64,000 nt of DNA from the human T2T-CHM13v2.0 reference genome, Homo sapiens: positions 13,632,001-13,696,000 of the forward strand of contig CP068257.2 of the NCBI GenBank assembly GCA_009914755.4, written 5' to 3'. Shown here one piece after another: positions 1 to 64,000 of the stretch (positions are counted from its first letter, which is position 1; every line of letters starts with the position of its first letter). A program made the position numbers and the translations under genes. The notes beneath the pieces are model-generated. The model had not been told where the DNA came from. It saw only the letters and a program-made list of their open reading frames with translations, and made no database searches.

Positions 1-2410
1 CAATGAAGGAAGGGCACTGAGGCTCACCTTTGGACTTCCTGGTTGACATCCCATGGTCAGGTCTGGATATTCAGTGTGTAAATTCATTCTAATGATATTA
101 ATTTTAAGAATGTTTTACAATTTTTTTCTAATTAAGTATTTTATGCACATATTAGGAAAAAAAATTGATTTGGTAAACCTAATAAATTTGCATCGAACCT
201 AATATTTTATGTTCATGAATTGTAAAGGAAAGCTTAGAGGGAAGATTCTCTGTGTCTTGCTTTTCAGAGAGAGACACAGGTATGGGTCAAAGGGCGCTTA
301 GAACCTTCCCATCCTTAATACATTATGGAAAATATTGACTGCTCTTCATCTTTGATATCATAAATTAGAGTATTATGTTCATAATGACTATTTTCTATTT
401 AAGGAGGTTTTTTGTGAAAAACATTATCTTTTTCTGAATAATAACTCCTTCAATGCTATCTATCTTCTCCCTCAACTGTGCCTTTGCAGCTGAATAACTG
501 ATTCACCATACTACTGAACAACTTTTTGATGACTTGAATTTATTTATTTATTTTTTAAAAGCCAATACATTCATTTGCCATTCTTGTACTTCCTGTCCTG
601 CTTAAAGCACTTTTTGCTATTTTTTTGTGATGTAAAATCAGTCCAGTTTATCTCCATTCAAGACATCTTTATTGAAAATGACTTGTCTCCAGGCTTATTT
701 TGGTTTCCCTTTCCAATCCTTATGGACAACTGGTTAGCTAATTGAGTCACTCCCAAGCCCCACTTCTGTTAATCAGTATATGTAATAAGTTGATGGAGTG
801 TAAACATTTATTTAATAAAGAGAATGTCACATCGGTTGAATGTCACTTACAGAAGTTACAAAAAGGAGCCATCCATTTATTCTTTCAACAGATATTTGTT
901 GAAGCATAAGATGCATAGCATGCTATTCTCTGTGTTATGGGATATTTTAGGATGTAAAAGACCTGGCTCACAAAAACATGCAAGCTAATGTTACTAACTT
1001 CATTTTGTCAAGCAATTTGGTATGGGAAATAACCAGTGGGAAAGCAAGTGGGGAAAGAAAAATAAGTAGAAAGACTCTGAACATATGTTCAACACAGCAG
1101 GAGACAGTGTTATAGACCTGGGATCCAACTTGTAAAAAGAAAGTGTGTAGTGGCTTGCATTTTGAAAAGAACCCCATATGGGGAAATATACTTTGTGGCA
1201 AAGACACAACAGGGAGACCTAGATGAGATCATGAGTATTTTCTCTGTGGAACCACAGAGAAGAATTTAGGGTTAGGAAGCCCATTAGCAGATGACATGCC
1301 CAGGAGCAACACTTAGCCACTGCCTGGGCATTCGTAGTGGCTTGTGTGTGTAGGAAGCTTATAAAGCTCTGAAGATTCCACTCATTTGCCTTTGCATTTA
1401 GCATCTTCTGTGCAGAAAATTAGTTATGCTGCAGCCTTAAAATGTTAGTTATCTAACATTTTAGAAAACTAGCTACCTATTAGGTTATAGTAATTGTATA
1501 AAAACATAAAATTAACCACTAGCTAGAATCATTTTTAGGATTTCTTCACTTTTAATTAAATCTAACATCAATGTTATAAAACCCAAAAGAATACAAAAAG
1601 ATTTATTTTGCTAGTAAAATGAATTTTCAAATGCTTTCAAGTCCCTTGGGGACTAAAGTTCAATAATAATTAAAGTCTTTTCATACCGCATGTGGGAAAG
1701 GGCCAAACACCATGTTGAGATTTCGTGAGTCTTCTGTACCAGCAAAGAGAGGCAGTAGAAGAAAGAAACACTTCCCTGCTCTGCATTAAGAGAACTATTA
1801 GGCTGCCATTCATAGTGCAATTTTTTGCAGTCCTACAGAAACACATTTCTAGGTCTTTAGACAGTTGAGTTCCAAAAGGGTTTTGCAAGAATCAAATCAC
1901 ATGTGAGCTGAGTCAAAAATCAGGAGGTCGCTTTGTAGGTGAAGAATGTGGCAAACATAAGATCGGAATGAAAGCAAAATTGAGAGTCGGCAGTGCAGGC
2001 TTTTGGAGGCGAAAGCCCAAAAGACAGGCCAAGAAATGCTTTCGATGTTGGACCTTGGGGATAAAATGATGATTTGTCAAATTACTAACTAGGTGAAAAA
2101 AACAAAAGGACATTCTCCAGCCAGGATCATGGGACCAGAGGTGTTGCCAGGTCAAATGACATTACCGGGTGACTTATTGCTCTTGGTTTTTTCTTGATGC
2201 ACTTCATTTAAGTTAACATTTTCATTCTCTGTGTTGTATTTTACGTATAGTGGTTTTCTCTACCTGAAGATTTTTGGAGTATTTACTCAATGACTTGTTT
2301 ATAATTTGTTTCCTCCTCTTTCAAGGTGAGTTGGCTAAGAACAAGGACGTTTTCCTAGTCACCCACTGTCTCCAAGCTTGTGAACAGTTACTGATAGCAC
2401 TCAACTGTTT

Positions 2411-2546
2411 TTTTATTTAAAAAAAAAATAAGGATGAGGTCTCAGTATGTTGCCTCAGGCTGGTCTTGAAATCCTGAGCTCAAGTGATCCTTCCTCCTCG
2501 GCCTCCCAAAGTGCTAAGATTACAGACATGAGCCACCATGCCTGGC
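2411..2546 (-). mobile_element. Partial Alu (free-left-monomer/FLAM-like, about 135 bp) with poly-T/A stretch at one end
   Basis: Antisense match to the Alu left arm ('ggctggtcttgaa...ctcaagtgatcc...gcctcccaaagtgctaagattacagacatgagccaccatgcctggc'). Flanked by a 13-bp direct repeat 'gcactcaactgtt' at 2398-2410 and 2548-2560, which looks like a target-site duplication. Confidence 0.8.
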
Positions 2547-3151
2547 GGCACTCAACTGTTAAATGAATGAATAAGTGAAATGAACATTTTTCAATAACAA
2601 CCTCAGCACACCATCACTGCTGCGTAGTGTGCACCAATGAGTGGTAATGTAAGATTTTATTGTTGGTTAAAGCTCAGATGTTTTCAGCAGACAGAGAGCT
2701 TGGAAGCAGAGCAAGCTCTGATAATAGCTCTTGCTCTTTGTGGGTGTGTACAGTGAATTTTAATTCACCTTGTTTATATAAGAAGGGTATAATATTAAAT
2801 ATAATTTTGGCATAGGCTTTAAAAAACAACAGCCTTAATATATTGATAAATTAGTACTTTGGGCTGTTGTCTCTTTTCTCCCAAAAGAAAATTCAATTAG
2901 AGTTAGGGTCATGTTGTCCCATAATGTTCGACAGAAGAGTGTTTGAATTCCATAGCCGATTTTTAGAAACAGTAGCTTGAGTTATTTTCTTCCCTAGTGC
3001 AGTTACCATGGAATTGATATAAAAACTTGGATATTTCTATATTACTCATTTCAGAAATGTGTTCAACTTTAAGGAATTATTTGGGTCTTAAAAAGTATTT
3101 TGCAACCAACTCATCTATACCATCAACTCCTGACTCACCTTCAAGCAATGT

Positions 3152-61606: not shown

Positions 61607-62440
61607 GCACTGGCAAGGATGTGGAGAAAGGGAAACCTTGCACACTATTGGTGGAAATAAAAATTAATACAGTCATAATGAAAACAATGGCGATATCTCA
61701 AAAAATTAAAAATAGAACTACTGTATGATGAAGCAATCCCACTAGTGCATGTATATCCAAAGGAAACGAAATCAGTATGCTAGATATCTGCACACCCATT
61801 TTCATTGCAACGTTATTTAGAATAGCCAAGATATGGAATCAACCTAAGTGTCCATCAACAGAGGAATGGATAAAGAACATGTAGAACGTATGGAACACCA
61901 TTCAGCCTTTAAAAAGAAGCAAATCCCGTCATTTGAAACAACATGAGTGAATCTGGAGAACACTATGTTAAGTGAAATAAACCAGGCTCAGAAAGACAAA
62001 TACCTCATGATCTCACTTACATGTGGAATCTAAAACAGTTGAACTCACAGAAGCAGCGAATACAATGATGGTTACCAGGGACTGGAAAGAAGGCAGTTGG
62101 GAAGGTGTTGGTCAAAGGATATAAAATGTCAATTAGATAGAAAGAGTAAGTTCAAGATATTTATTGTATAACATGATGACAATAGTTAACAACAATGTAA
62201 TATTTTCTTGAAAATTGCTAAGAGAGTAGATTTTAAGTGCTTTTATCATGAAAAATAAATATGTGAGGTAATGCGTACGTTAATTAGCTTGATCTAGCCA
62301 TTACACAATGTATAAATATTTAAAACCATCATGTTGTACAAGAGGTATATACAATTTTTCTTTCTCAGTTAAACATTATTTTTAAAATGGTGTGTTTTAT
62401 GTTATACAAATTATAGCTGAGTTAAAAAAAGAACTTTAAA
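61607..62440 (+). mobile_element. L1 (L1PB/L1MA1-like) 3' end: ORF2 C-terminus plus 3' UTR, sense
   Basis: 'gcactggcaaggatgtggagaaagggaaaccttgcacactattggtggaaataaaaattaatacagtcataatgaaaacaatggcgatatctcaaaaaattaaaaatagaactactgtatgatgaagcaatcccactagtgcatgtatatccaaaggaaacgaaatcagtatgc...caagatatggaatcaacctaagtgtccatcaacagaggaatggataaag...ggttaccagggactgg...tgacaatagttaacaacaatgtaatattttcttgaaaattgctaagagagtagattttaagtgcttttatcatgaaaaataaatatgtgaggtaatgcgtacgttaattagcttgatc...ttgtacaagaggtatatacaatttttctttc'. It repeats the same ORF2 segment that ends the upstream L1M piece, so this is a second, different L1 copy. Confidence 0.8.
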
Positions 62441-64000
62441 AATCATTTATTTTGAGTTATACACTAATTCCAGTAATCTTTTCTGCCACTCTGTATATGA
62501 ATATTTTAAACTAATTGAGAGCTAAAGCACCTTTTTATTTCGAAGAATGGTCCTTCCTCAAAACACACTATTTAAAACCAATTCCCCATGGAGTGTCATT
62601 CTTCACTTGCAGAGAATATCTTTCTTAGTCTAAACTATGTGAATACAGACTCAGGTTCTCTTAACCTGTCCAAAACATTTGTAAGCTACTAACTAAAAAT
62701 TCAGCGATACATAGAATTAATTTTCTGGATGATTTCTGGTAGGTACCTATAATAATCAGCAGTAAACTGTTTCTCATCCATGTCTGTTACCTAAAGCCCT
62801 AATAAAATAAGTGTGCTATAGAGTGATAGAATTAGGGGAACCATCTCTTTTTTTACATTAAATATTATGAAAAATATTTTATCTAAGAAAGAGTGTTTTA
62901 AATGATTAAGATGAAAAAGATAAATACTCCATTAGTAATAATGGCTCAACTTTGCTCATTTTAACTAACAGCAGACAGAGTTCCCTCCTTAGAGATATCA
63001 ATATTTGAATGCTTTGGGGCAAAGGGAATAAGATAATAAAATTTAGATCCAAGTCTTACCCAAAGGCATCTACCTGTCCAAAAAAAAAAAAAAAAAAAAA
63101 CCTCTTGAGTCCCCCTTTTCCTCAGAAAAAAATTCCTAAACCTAAATGAAACCGATCACTTTTTCAGGGTTCCCACCTAAGGACGTAGCATGCCATAGTC
63201 ATCTCTCCTGTCTTGTTCTCCACTATCAGCCATATCCAATCCAACACTGTCTAGTGCATTCATTGCAATTTTATTGTTAGGTATAGTATGAATAAACTAA
63301 CAGTTAGTGTATTCCCTGATTGGTTGGGTCACTGTGGGAGACAGAGCCCATTATCGAAGGATAGAAACTGAGCAGGAGCAAATATTTTCTTTCCTTTCTT
63401 CCAGAGCCATCAAGTCACTGGCTCACAAATTAGGCTATGGAACATGGATTCCCCAGCTAGGTCTTTGACTCTTGAGATGTAAAGATGCAAAGATGCAAAA
63501 ACAGTTTGTGATTGTCCACAGTTGACATGGTGAGATTGAGAGTCCAGTGTGCTGTTCTTACCAGCCTATTCCTCTGGAATGACTTTGGCTGTTTTCTTGG
63601 CTACCTACTGTTCTTTTGTTCTCATGTGTTTTCCAACATCAATTTTCCCATTTCGCATCAATTCTGTTAGTGTCCTGATATCTTTCCAATAAATTCCTTA
63701 TCTGCTGGGGTTGGCTTCTGTTATTCTCAACCAAGAATCTTGATCAGCACAATTGCTAAAGACTTTCAGTTTTCTTTCCTAATTATCTTGGAGACTCTCC
63801 ATGTGTCTCAATCTTCATTACTACTACCATGAAAGTGCAAGCTAAAGCACCTATTTTCATTCTAAGGCAATGGCTTCTGACCTCTTCTACCCATATCCAT
63901 GCATATCCTTTCAGAATTCATCTTCTACACTGCAGCTAGAGGGAATTCTTAAAAACAGAAACTGATAATTTCACTTGGCTTAAATCCTTTAATGGCTTCT

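What the first reader, a model, noticed from the sequence alone, without database searches (positions are those of the whole stretch)
1..64000. The window is primate (human-like) repeat-rich non-coding DNA, not a microbial accessory locus
Eleven Alu elements, including AluY-type copies, L1PA/L1PB/L1M fragments, THE1/MST MaLR LTRs, MIR and A-tail microsatellites are all directly recognisable. By my estimate close to half of the window is interspersed repeat. The rest is AT-rich and CpG-poor with no long ORF outside repeats. This reframes every ORF in the supplied track as non-genic. It also means the framing of an 'undescribed system', in the prokaryotic sense, does not apply.
Basis: partly seen in the sequence, partly recalled or inferred. 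Interest (0 to 1): 0.5.

Follow-up and report, generated by a model that had tools for sequence, protein, structure and literature searches.

The report
Primate repeat-rich non-coding genomic DNA
This 64-kb window is ordinary chromosomal DNA of an Old-World primate, most likely human, made largely of decayed Alu, LINE-1 and LTR retrotransposon copies with no detectable gene, so it is host, contaminant or control sequence rather than a microbial system.

Summary
The window holds exactly eleven Alu elements: ten dimers and one free monomer, of J, S and Y age classes. Ten of them were found independently by Rfam's 7SL/SRP model as pairs of arms lacking the S domain. At least four have A-rich tails and 10-13 bp target-site duplications. 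LINE-1 remnants match Pfam L1 ORF1 domains and solved human L1 ORF1p/ORF2p structures (E down to 3e-108). Also present are three full-length THE1-type LTRs, one MLT1-type LTR, two MIR cores and four microsatellites grown from Alu tails. GC is 37.9% and CpG o/e is 0.18, with TpG/CpA excess. Alu CpG sites have decayed 25-64%, against 1.7-15% at other sites. No ORF matches Pfam, NCBIfam, PADLOC or PHROGs, and no DNA matches plasmids or phages. An orthologous contig about 6-7.6% divergent exists in another primate sample. Two points stay unverified. Assignment to human rather than another catarrhine could not be tested, because no primate reference was available. Ordinary and already known, but useful as triage.

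The parts
2428..2560 (-). Free Alu monomer (FLAM-like, AluJ-type left arm) with a short A-rich tail, flanked by a perfect 13-bp target-site duplication AACAGTTGAGTGC
7825..8181 (-). THE1-type MaLR LTR, full length, with TGATA...AATACA termini
   Evidence: 83.6% identity to a THE1B consensus recalled from memory, E=9e-95
8244..8592 (-). AluS dimer with its tail expanded into (AAAT)n, seen as (TTTA)n on the + strand at 8244-8286. 13-bp TSD AAAATCATACTGG
10225..10510 (-). Old AluJ dimer (75% identity) with a short A tail
   Evidence: mir-3135 (Alu-derived family) hit
11747..12203 (+). MLT1-type MaLR LTR
   Evidence: 70% identity over 492 columns, E=5e-68, consensus from memory; sequence read
12642..14278 (-). 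GC-rich solo LTR-like element A (1.64 kb). TG...CA termini and a perfect 4-bp TSD (CTAA on the + strand). Carries ORFs of 113-170 aa
20042..20201 (+). MIR core fragment
   Evidence: 73.6% identity, E=1e-25, consensus from memory
22067..22434 (+). AluS dimer with its tail expanded into (AAAT)n at 22366-22434
24999..25173 (+). MIR core fragment
   Evidence: 76.7% identity, E=2e-30
31106..31610 (+). AluS dimer (31106-31389) whose tail has grown into a compound (AAAG)n/(AG)n/(AAGG)n array of about 210 bp. The array generates three spurious 106-133 aa ORFs on the minus strand
35527..35890 (+). THE1-type MaLR LTR, full length
37812..38129 (-). AluY-type dimer with a tail of about 21 A. Left half of an inverted Alu pair
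38163..38458 (+). AluS dimer with an A15 tail. Right half of the inverted Alu pair (43-bp spacer)
39481..39778 (+). AluS/Y dimer with an A12 tail and TSD AAAGGTAATT
40138..40486 (-). 5'-truncated L1 3' end. Covers the last 35 aa of ORF2 (80% identity) and the 3'UTR, ending ...ACTTAAAGTATAAT plus about 19 A
40505..40863 (+). THE1-type MaLR LTR, full length
42163..42502 (-). AluS dimer with its tail expanded into (GAAAA)n, seen as (TTTCT)n on the + strand. TSD AACTAT[T/C]AGTT
44290..45610 (-). Old L1 3' portion. ORF2 aa 970-1275 at 33-64% identity, plus a probable A-rich 3' end near 44290
45834..46117 (+). Old AluJ dimer (78% identity)
49506..51700 (+). GC-rich solo LTR-like element B (2.2 kb), a diverged inverted copy of A. 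Has a TATA-like tataaaaagg, an AGTAAA signal and 57-bp tandem repeats. Carries the window's longest ORF (258 aa)
54158..59050 (-). Old, deletion-riddled L1. The ORF1 remnant at 56346-57152 is firmly supported. Collinear ORF2 traces at 55367-54158 are weak. The upstream 5' region to about 59050, with ~270-bp tandem units, is inferred
   Evidence: ORF1p E=7.5e-59; for the 5' region
59353..62027 (+). Old L1 ORF2 remnants (aa 666-1274, 34-69% identity). Interrupted by the AluY at 61275-61609 and by a short inverted L1 piece at 59899-60045
61275..61609 (+). Youngest element: AluY dimer (93.6% identity, 1.7% non-CpG divergence) with an A-rich tail, nested in L1

Best explanation
The window is a stretch of nuclear DNA from a catarrhine primate, most likely human. 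It comes from an AT-rich, gene-poor part of a chromosome.

How it was built. Successive waves of retrotransposition produced a mosaic. LINE-1 elements inserted by target-primed reverse transcription, leaving 5'-truncated copies with poly(A) tails. Alu and MIR SINEs were copied by the LINE machinery, leaving A-tails and target-site duplications. LTR retrotransposons (THE1/MLT1 MaLR and an ERV1-like family) inserted and mostly collapsed to solo LTRs by LTR-LTR recombination.

What happened since. All copies have decayed neutrally. Germline CpG methylation removed most CpGs, and Alu A-tails expanded into microsatellites.

Consequence for the scan. The open reading frames are chance frames, concentrated in GC-rich LTRs, microsatellites and L1 remnants. 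In a microbial scan the window is therefore host or contaminant DNA, or a control, and not an accessory locus.

Shown here: the identity and anatomy of the elements, their hallmarks, the CpG decay, and the absence of microbial signal. Inferred: the mechanistic history (from established knowledge of these families), the human assignment, and the reason the window entered the scan.
For: - Alu count and identity: exactly 11 Alu loci. Ten are re-found by the Rfam 7SL model as S-domain-less arms, eight of them as dimers.
- Alu ages: J, S and Y age classes with a consistent divergence gradient.
- Retrotransposition hallmarks: A-rich tails plus 10-13 bp TSDs at four or more Alus.
- L1 3' end: a canonical L1 3' terminus with A19.
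- L1 proteins: the L1 ORF1 remnant hits Pfam PF02994 and PF17490. Window translations hit solved human LINE-1 ORF2p at E=3e-108 in four collinear stretches, and ORF1p at E=7.5e-59.
- LTRs and MIR: three THE1-like LTRs with TG...CA ends, one MLT1-like LTR and two MIR cores.
- GC-rich LTR-like copies: two inverted copies, 69-76% identical, one with a perfect 4-bp TSD.
- Composition: CpG o/e 0.177 with GpC o/e 1.04 and TpG/CpA o/e 1.21/1.22.
- CpG decay: CpG sites in Alus have decayed 25-64% against 1.7-15% at other sites.
- Ortholog: Logan contigs L008/L009 align end to end with window 46083-50805. Substitution divergence is 7.6% overall and 5-7% in unique flank, roughly the ape-to-Old-World-monkey distance as I recall it.
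- Same-species DNA: a 449-bp stretch of an ENA metagenome contig is 100% identical to window 49773-50221.
- Paralogs: copies of the GC-rich LTR lie on contigs labelled human oral and human bile metagenome.
- No microbial signal.
Against: - No primate reference genome was available, so a single-locus match to human was not demonstrated.
- Four unique 30-mer scans of genome, metagenome and viral collections found nothing.
- Two composite protein searches found no near-identical ORFs. The only same-species evidence is therefore 449 bp from a sample of unknown host.
- The data cannot say which of the window and L008 is the hominoid and which the Old World monkey.
- Only 22-29% of the window could be positively assigned to repeats.
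- The Alu subfamily, THE1, MLT1 and MIR labels rest on consensus sequences recalled from memory. The alignments themselves are far beyond chance.
Confidence: 0.9

Rival explanations
1. The DNA is from a non-human catarrhine, either another ape or an Old World monkey such as a macaque. Everything else would be the same.
For: - AluY only restricts the source to catarrhines (established knowledge).
- No lineage-specific young element (SVA, AluYa5/Yb8, L1PA2-3) was seen.
- The collection holds a contig about 6-7.6% divergent. On sampling priors alone, that contig could be the human one and the window the monkey.
- Near-identical contaminant contigs, expected to be common for human DNA, were almost absent.
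Against: - Human is by far the commonest primate DNA in public data and in contamination (PMC6581058).
- One ENA contig is 100% identical over 449 bp. At the ~1.2% human-chimpanzee divergence, about 5 differences would be expected over that length, so that sample's host is very probably the window's own species.
- Paralogous copies of the window's LTR family sit on human-labelled metagenome contigs, though this does not discriminate between species.
Confidence: 0.12
2. The window is not purely non-genic. It may lie inside an intron of a large gene, or contain a short coding or lncRNA exon or a regulatory element that the screens used here cannot see.
For: - Introns and lncRNA loci cover a large share of primate genomes (general knowledge).
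- Only open frames of 66 aa or more outside repeats were screened. Shorter exons, UTR exons and non-coding exons were not tested.
- LTR B retains TATA-like and AGTAAA signals.
Against: - 104 non-repeat frames of 66 aa or more, plus 7 LTR ORFs, gave no hit at E<=1e-5 among 5.8 billion proteins.
- There is no CpG island, no Rfam gene at the gathering threshold and no tRNA.
- The 4.7-kb ortholog comparison shows fairly even 5-11% divergence with no strongly conserved block.
- The composite searches had no internal positive control in that tool. The same X-spacer format did work in phmmer against PDB.
Confidence: 0.35
3. The primate DNA is physically part of a non-primate replicon. It could be a cloned insert (BAC/fosmid), or host DNA captured by a virus or microbe, with the non-primate part lying outside the 64-kb window.
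For: The window was presented in a microbial scan, and its flanks are not visible. Nothing in the window can exclude what lies beyond it.
Against: - All 64 kb are primate-like from end to end: CpG depletion is seen in every 2-kb bin except Alu-rich ones.
- There is no plasmid or phage similarity and no vector-like or microbial ORF.
- Transfer of tens of kilobases of repeat-rich intergenic host DNA into a microbe has no precedent known to me.
Confidence: 0.02
4. It is a genuine prokaryotic or phage accessory locus whose resemblance to primate repeats is coincidental.
For: None found.
Against: - Eleven Alu matches of 122-426 bits, and 7SL-model hits with E down to 9e-15.
- L1 protein matches at E=3e-108.
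- CpG o/e of 0.18.
- Only 16.6% of the window lies under frames of 100 codons or more.
- No family hits and no plasmid or phage hits.
Confidence: 0.003

Closest known systems
Alu elements (primate 7SL-derived dimeric SINE; J, S and Y subfamilies)
   Same: Eleven copies are present. Most show two 7SL Alu-domain arms, a length of about 280-300 bp, A-rich tails and 10-13 bp target-site duplications. Their divergence follows the J>S>Y age order.
   Different: Nothing unusual. One copy is a free monomer (FLAM-like). Four tails have expanded into tetra- or pentanucleotide microsatellites, which is a well-known fate of Alu tails.
LINE-1 (L1) retrotransposons
   Same: ORF1 RRM and CTD domains and ORF2 C-terminal and RT segments are recognisable. 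There is a canonical 3' end with a poly(A) tail, 5' truncation and nesting.
   Different: All copies are dead, riddled with stop codons, frameshifts and deletions. No intact ORF and no L1PA-type 5'UTR was found. Subfamily names could not be tested.
THE1/MST/MLT1 MaLR (ERVL-MaLR) LTRs
   Same: Three LTRs of about 360 bp with TGATA...AATACA termini are 77-84% identical to a THE1B consensus and 72-76% identical to each other. There is also one MLT1-like LTR.
   Different: The expected 5-bp target-site duplications are not recognisable. The consensus sequences were recalled from memory, not taken from Dfam.
ERV1-type solo LTRs
   Same: Elements A and B have TG...CA termini. A has a perfect 4-bp TSD. 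B has TATA-like and poly(A)-signal motifs and internal tandem repeats.
   Different: The family name is unknown. The elements are unusually long (1.6-2.2 kb) and GC-rich (54-64%). B's TSD has decayed to 2 of 4 matches.
Human/host DNA contamination in microbial and metagenomic assemblies (Breitwieser et al. 2019, PMC6581058)
   Same: ORF callers applied to primate repeats yield spurious 'proteins'. Relatives of this window's longest ORF occur only as unnamed ORFs on human-labelled metagenome and Logan contigs.
   Different: Contaminant contigs are typically short. This is a contiguous 64 kb, which fits a reference-quality or long-read source or a deliberate control. Its provenance is unknown.

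Membership tests
Alu (SINE1/7SL) | Derived from the Alu domain of 7SL RNA, with the S domain deleted | tested here: met
   Rfam Metazoa_SRP hits span model positions 1-299 with the central 161 positions absent, at 10 of 11 loci. E ranges from 9e-15 to 4.5e-5.
Alu (SINE1/7SL) | Dimer of left and right monomers, about 280-300 bp | tested here: met
   Two adjacent 7SL-arm hits are found per element at 8 loci. Full-length alignments to the consensus are found at 10 loci. One locus is a monomer.
Alu (SINE1/7SL) | 3' A-rich tail and flanking target-site duplications from L1-mediated insertion | tested here: met
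   Clear TSDs of 10-13 bp at 2438, 8288, 39481 and 42197. A-rich tails are present at most copies; no clean tail at 45841-46117. TSDs are not recognisable at the oldest copies.
Alu (SINE1/7SL) | Subfamily assignment by curated Dfam/RepeatMasker models | not testable with these tools
   Only consensus sequences recalled from memory were available.
LINE-1 | ORF1p RNA-binding domains | tested here: met
   Pfam PF02994 (E=5.6e-29) and PF17490 (E=1.2e-24) at 56346-56878(-). PDB 2ykp LINE-1 ORF1p at E=7.5e-59.
LINE-1 | ORF2p (endonuclease, reverse transcriptase, C-terminal segment) | tested here: met
   phmmer hits to PDB 9hdo/8uw3/8sxt LINE-1 ORF2p at E=3e-108, and to the 8c8j RT core at E=6.7e-52. 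Only aa ~500-1275 are represented. No endonuclease segment was detected.
LINE-1 | 3' poly(A) tail and frequent 5' truncation | tested here: met
   The fragment at 40138-40486(-) ends ...ACTTAAAGTATAAT plus about 19 A and is truncated within the last 35 codons of ORF2.
ERVL-MaLR LTR (THE1/MLT1) | LTR of about 350-480 bp with TG...CA termini and similarity to the family consensus | tested here: met
   Three copies align over consensus positions 1-363 at E of 1e-73 to 9e-95, with TGATA...AATACA ends. MLT1 aligns at E=5e-68. The consensus was recalled from memory.
ERVL-MaLR LTR (THE1/MLT1) | 5-bp target-site duplication | tested here: inconclusive
   No matching 5-mers flank any of the three THE1 LTRs. 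This is compatible with decay or with adjacent internal sequence.
MIR (tRNA-derived core-SINE) | Similarity to the MIR core region | tested here: met
   Two hits at 74-77% identity over 163-180 bp, E=1e-25 and 2e-30. The consensus was from memory. The tRNA-like head was not examined.
ERV1-type solo LTR | TG...CA termini and a 4-bp TSD with no internal gag/pol sequence | tested here: met
   Element A reads CTAA|TG...CA|CTAA on the + strand, read there as TGTCACGA...TGCCATCA. Element B has TG...CA but only 2 of 4 TSD matches. No protein-family hit in its ORFs.
Vertebrate germline-methylated genome | CpG depletion with reciprocal TpG/CpA excess and normal GpC | tested here: met
   CpG o/e 0.177, GpC o/e 1.04, TpG 1.21, CpA 1.22. 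CpG positions in Alus have decayed 25-64% against 1.7-15% at other sites.
Human genome (single locus in GRCh38/T2T-CHM13) | Near-identical, full-length, single-locus alignment | not testable with these tools
   No primate reference was available. The indirect evidence is a 449-bp 100% match in ENA ERZ1743077 and an ortholog at 7.6% divergence.
Prokaryotic or phage accessory locus / defence system | Dense coding, ORFs belonging to known microbial families, similarity to mobile-element records | tested here: not met
   Only 16.6% of the window lies under frames of 100 codons or more. The ten longest ORFs give 0 hits in Pfam, PADLOC, NCBIfam and PHROGs. There is no plasmid or phage match, and no tRNA or Rfam gene.

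The most novel reading that the evidence does not exclude
The 64 kb of primate repeat-rich DNA is physically integrated in a microbial or viral genome, as host-to-microbe transfer, with the junctions lying outside the window. It would then not be contamination or a control.
Probability: 0.004. Interest if true: 0.8.

Novelty: already known. Interest (0 to 1): 0.05.

Why it matters
The value is triage only. Recognising the window as primate DNA removes every ORF in it from consideration as a microbial gene or "undescribed system". It also flags the source record for contamination screening, if it is not a deliberate control.

It shows concretely where spurious ORFs arise on host DNA. GC-rich solo LTRs give frames of up to 258 aa. 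Microsatellites grown from Alu tails give three overlapping ORFs of 106-133 aa. Dead L1 copies add more. This is the same route by which human repeats have seeded thousands of spurious proteins in bacterial annotation (PMC6581058).

Tried and rejected
1. Locating the window in public collections. Four unique 30-mers were scanned in genome contigs, metagenome contigs and viral contigs, with 0 hits. No provenance was obtained.

2. Identifying the locus or exons by protein search. Two composite queries covered 104 non-repeat open frames of 66 aa or more plus 7 LTR ORFs, with 0 hits at E<=1e-5. That tool had no internal positive control, so the negative is moderate evidence only.

3. Literature look-up of SRR26803962/3 and ERZ1743077 found no paper. 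The hosts of the matching samples remain unknown.

4. CpG islands or promoters in the two GC-rich blocks. Rejected: CpG o/e is 0.03-0.39 there. They are diverged inverted copies of one LTR-like repeat.

5. L001 as a same-locus contig. It is a low-coverage chimera. Only 449 bp match at 100%, and the rest is another copy of the repeat or unrelated sequence.

6. The pair of THE1 LTRs at 35.5 and 40.5 kb as the two ends of one provirus. Not supported: they are less similar to each other (72%) than the 40.5-kb copy is to the 7.8-kb copy (75%), and there is no shared TSD.

7. A sub-threshold mir-137 hit at 7658-7776. Rejected: it is a plain hairpin without the mature miR-137 sequence. The mir-297 and mir-466 hits at 19.9 kb are the (AT)n repeat.

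An L2 consensus gave only a marginal 123-bp hit at E=4e-7. These elements may be absent, or my recall may be imperfect.

9. The (AAAG)n array at 31.4 kb as a known forensic STR such as D18S51. The flanks do not match what I recall, so I did not pursue it.

10. Raising the repeat lower bound by comparing the window with about 21 kb of unrelated contaminant contigs. Nothing new was found.

Full report
**Observation.** The window has 37.9% GC. Its CpG observed/expected ratio is 0.177, while GpC is 1.04 and TpG/CpA are 1.21/1.22. This asymmetric loss of CpG to TpG/CpA is the signature of germline cytosine methylation in vertebrates. No 500-bp bin qualifies as a CpG island. There are no Rfam families at curated thresholds and no tRNAs.

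**Alu elements.** Because a recalled consensus is only a lead, I repeated the test with Rfam's metazoan 7SL/SRP covariance model in E-value mode.

- Ten of the eleven loci are hit. Eight are hit as two adjacent arms, each spanning the ends of the model with the central 161-position S domain missing. That is the defining architecture of Alu.
- The eleventh locus (10237-10502, only 75% identical to AluJ) is flagged by the Alu-derived miRNA family mir-3135.
- One locus (2428-2560) is a single left arm with its own A-rich tail and a perfect 13-bp target-site duplication, so it is a free monomer.
- At least four Alus have recognisable TSDs of 10-13 bp, and most copies have A-rich tails.
- Four tails have expanded into tetra- or pentanucleotide arrays (the 31.4-kb array was read).
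- Three copies are closest to AluJ, five or six to AluS and two to AluY. The youngest (61275-61575) is 1.7% diverged from AluY at non-CpG sites.
- Across all copies, CpG positions have decayed 25-64% against 1.7-15% elsewhere.

**LINE-1.** tblastn with recalled ORF1p and ORF2p sequences located remnants at 40.4, 44.7-45.6, 56.3-56.9 and 59.4-62.0 kb. At relaxed thresholds, weak collinear ORF2 traces appear at 55.4-54.2 kb. Two checks do not depend on memory.

- The ORF1 remnant matches Pfam Transposase_22 and Tnp_22_dsRBD.
- The window's own translations match solved human LINE-1 ORF2p structures at E=3e-108 in four stretches, and ORF1p at E=7.5e-59.

The fragment at 40138-40486 ends in the canonical L1 3' terminus followed by about 19 A. 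Amino-acid identities of 33-80% show a mixture of ages.

**LTR elements and MIR.** Three full-length THE1-like LTRs (7825-8181, 35527-35890, 40505-40863) have TGATA...AATACA termini. There is also one MLT1-like LTR (11747-12203) and two MIR cores.

They are inverted copies, 69-76% identical, of one long LTR-like repeat.

- Element A is 12642-14278. It has TG...CA ends and a perfect 4-bp duplication (CTAA).
- Element B is 49506-51700. It keeps TATA-like and AGTAAA motifs and 57-bp tandem repeats.
- Together they contain every ORF of 140 aa or more in the window, including the longest at 258 aa.

**Repeat fraction.** I can assign 21.7% of the window firmly, and 28.8% including weak L1 extensions. 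Both are lower bounds, because Dfam profiles for ancient repeats were not available. The remainder is 35.4% GC with CpG o/e 0.154.

**ORFs.** The longest ORF outside identified repeats is 133 aa. This is within what block-shuffled sequence gives (maximum 167 +/- 28 codons). Only 16.6% of the window lies under any frame of 100 codons or more. The ten longest ORFs have no hit in Pfam, PADLOC, NCBIfam or PHROGs. Composite queries of 104 non-repeat frames of 66 aa or more plus 7 LTR ORFs found nothing among 5.8 billion proteins. The X-spacer format of those queries was shown to work in phmmer. No DNA similarity to plasmid or phage records was found over the parts searched: plasmids were searched with 1-50000, and phages with 1-25000 and 39001-64000.

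**Related sequences.** The 258-aa ORF retrieved four unnamed proteins.

- One lies on an ENA contig (ERZ1743077). The contig is chimeric, but 449 bp of it are 100% identical to the window.
- Paralogous copies lie on contigs labelled human oral and human bile metagenome and on Logan contigs.
- Two Logan contigs (SRR26803962/3) align end to end with window 46083-50805, including 3.4 kb of non-repeat flank. Substitution divergence is 7.6% overall and 5-7% in the flank.

The Logan contigs represent an orthologous locus in a different primate, at roughly the ape-to-Old-World-monkey distance as I recall it (about 6.5%). They also show that LTR B predates that split. Unique 30-mers from the window are absent from the genome, metagenome and viral collections, and the sample accessions are not in the literature library.

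**Interpretation.** Alu is primate-specific and AluY is catarrhine-specific; this is established knowledge. Together with the tool results, the window is catarrhine nuclear DNA. Human is the most likely species on priors and on the identical ENA fragment, but it is not demonstrated. The data cannot even say which of the window and L008 is the hominoid.

The mechanisms are those known for these families. L1 inserts by target-primed reverse transcription. Alu and MIR are mobilised in trans. LTR retrotransposons insert and are then reduced to solo LTRs by recombination. All copies then undergo neutral decay, methylation-driven CpG loss and microsatellite growth from A-tails. These steps are inferred from the anatomy and were not observed directly.

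**Verdict.** This is already-known, ordinary sequence. Its only importance is as triage: the ORFs are spurious, in the manner documented for human contamination of bacterial assemblies (PMC6581058, found).

Noticed in passing
window 37812-38458: Two full-length Alus (AluY-type on the minus strand, AluS on the plus strand) lie head to head, 43 bp apart. They form a roughly 630-nt inverted repeat with 79.5% complementarity. If transcribed, this would fold into a long dsRNA hairpin. The junction also draws sub-threshold hits to the Alu-derived miRNA families mir-1972 and mir-619.
   Followed up: partly
window 12642-14278 and 49506-51700: Two long (1.6 and 2.2 kb), GC-rich (54-64%), CpG-poor solo LTR-like elements of one unidentified family sit in inverted orientation 35 kb apart. 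They hold all ORFs of 140 aa or more. Relatives of those ORFs occur only as unnamed ORFs on human-labelled metagenome and Logan contigs.
   Followed up: yes
window 7653-7784: A hairpin of about 130 nt, with arms of about 28 nt and a loop of about 62 nt, lies next to a THE1 LTR. It scores 38.7 bits against Rfam mir-137 (gathering score 56.7) but lacks the mature miR-137 sequence. The arms resemble the MIR 5' region (TTACTATGTGC), so this may be an inverted pair of repeat fragments.
   Followed up: partly
window 58257-58849: Two or three diverged (73%) tandem units of about 270 bp lie in the GC-rich region upstream of the minus-strand L1 ORF1 remnant. They may be a monomer-like structure of an old L1 5'UTR, or a separate plus-strand element. 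They carry 110-116 aa chance ORFs.
   Followed up: no
window 5563-5698: A 67-bp unit is duplicated in tandem at 89% identity, in sequence that is otherwise unclassified.
   Followed up: no
window 59353-62027: Complex nesting within L1. A plus-strand ORF2 remnant reaches aa ~1202 just before the AluY at 61275, then resumes after it at aa ~1129, giving a partial duplication of about 70 codons. A short inverted ORF2 C-terminal piece sits at 59899-60045.
   Followed up: no
L008/L009 (Logan SRR26803962/3) vs window 46083-50805: An orthologous 4.7-kb contig from another primate sample. Substitution divergence is 7.6% overall, about 5-7% in AT-rich unique DNA and about 11% in the GC-rich LTR. The largest indel is 22 bp. 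The host species is unknown.
   Followed up: partly
L001 (ENA ERZ1743077, 907 bp): A low-coverage metagenome contig that is a chimera. Its first ~400 bp come from another copy of the GC-rich LTR family, the next 449 bp are identical to window 49773-50221, and the last 59 bp are unrelated. The gene caller still produced a 173-aa 'protein' across the join.
   Followed up: yes
window 19880-19955: An (AT)n dinucleotide repeat draws sub-threshold Rfam hits to mir-297 and mir-466, with E down to 3e-8. These are false positives caused by low-complexity sequence.
   Followed up: yes
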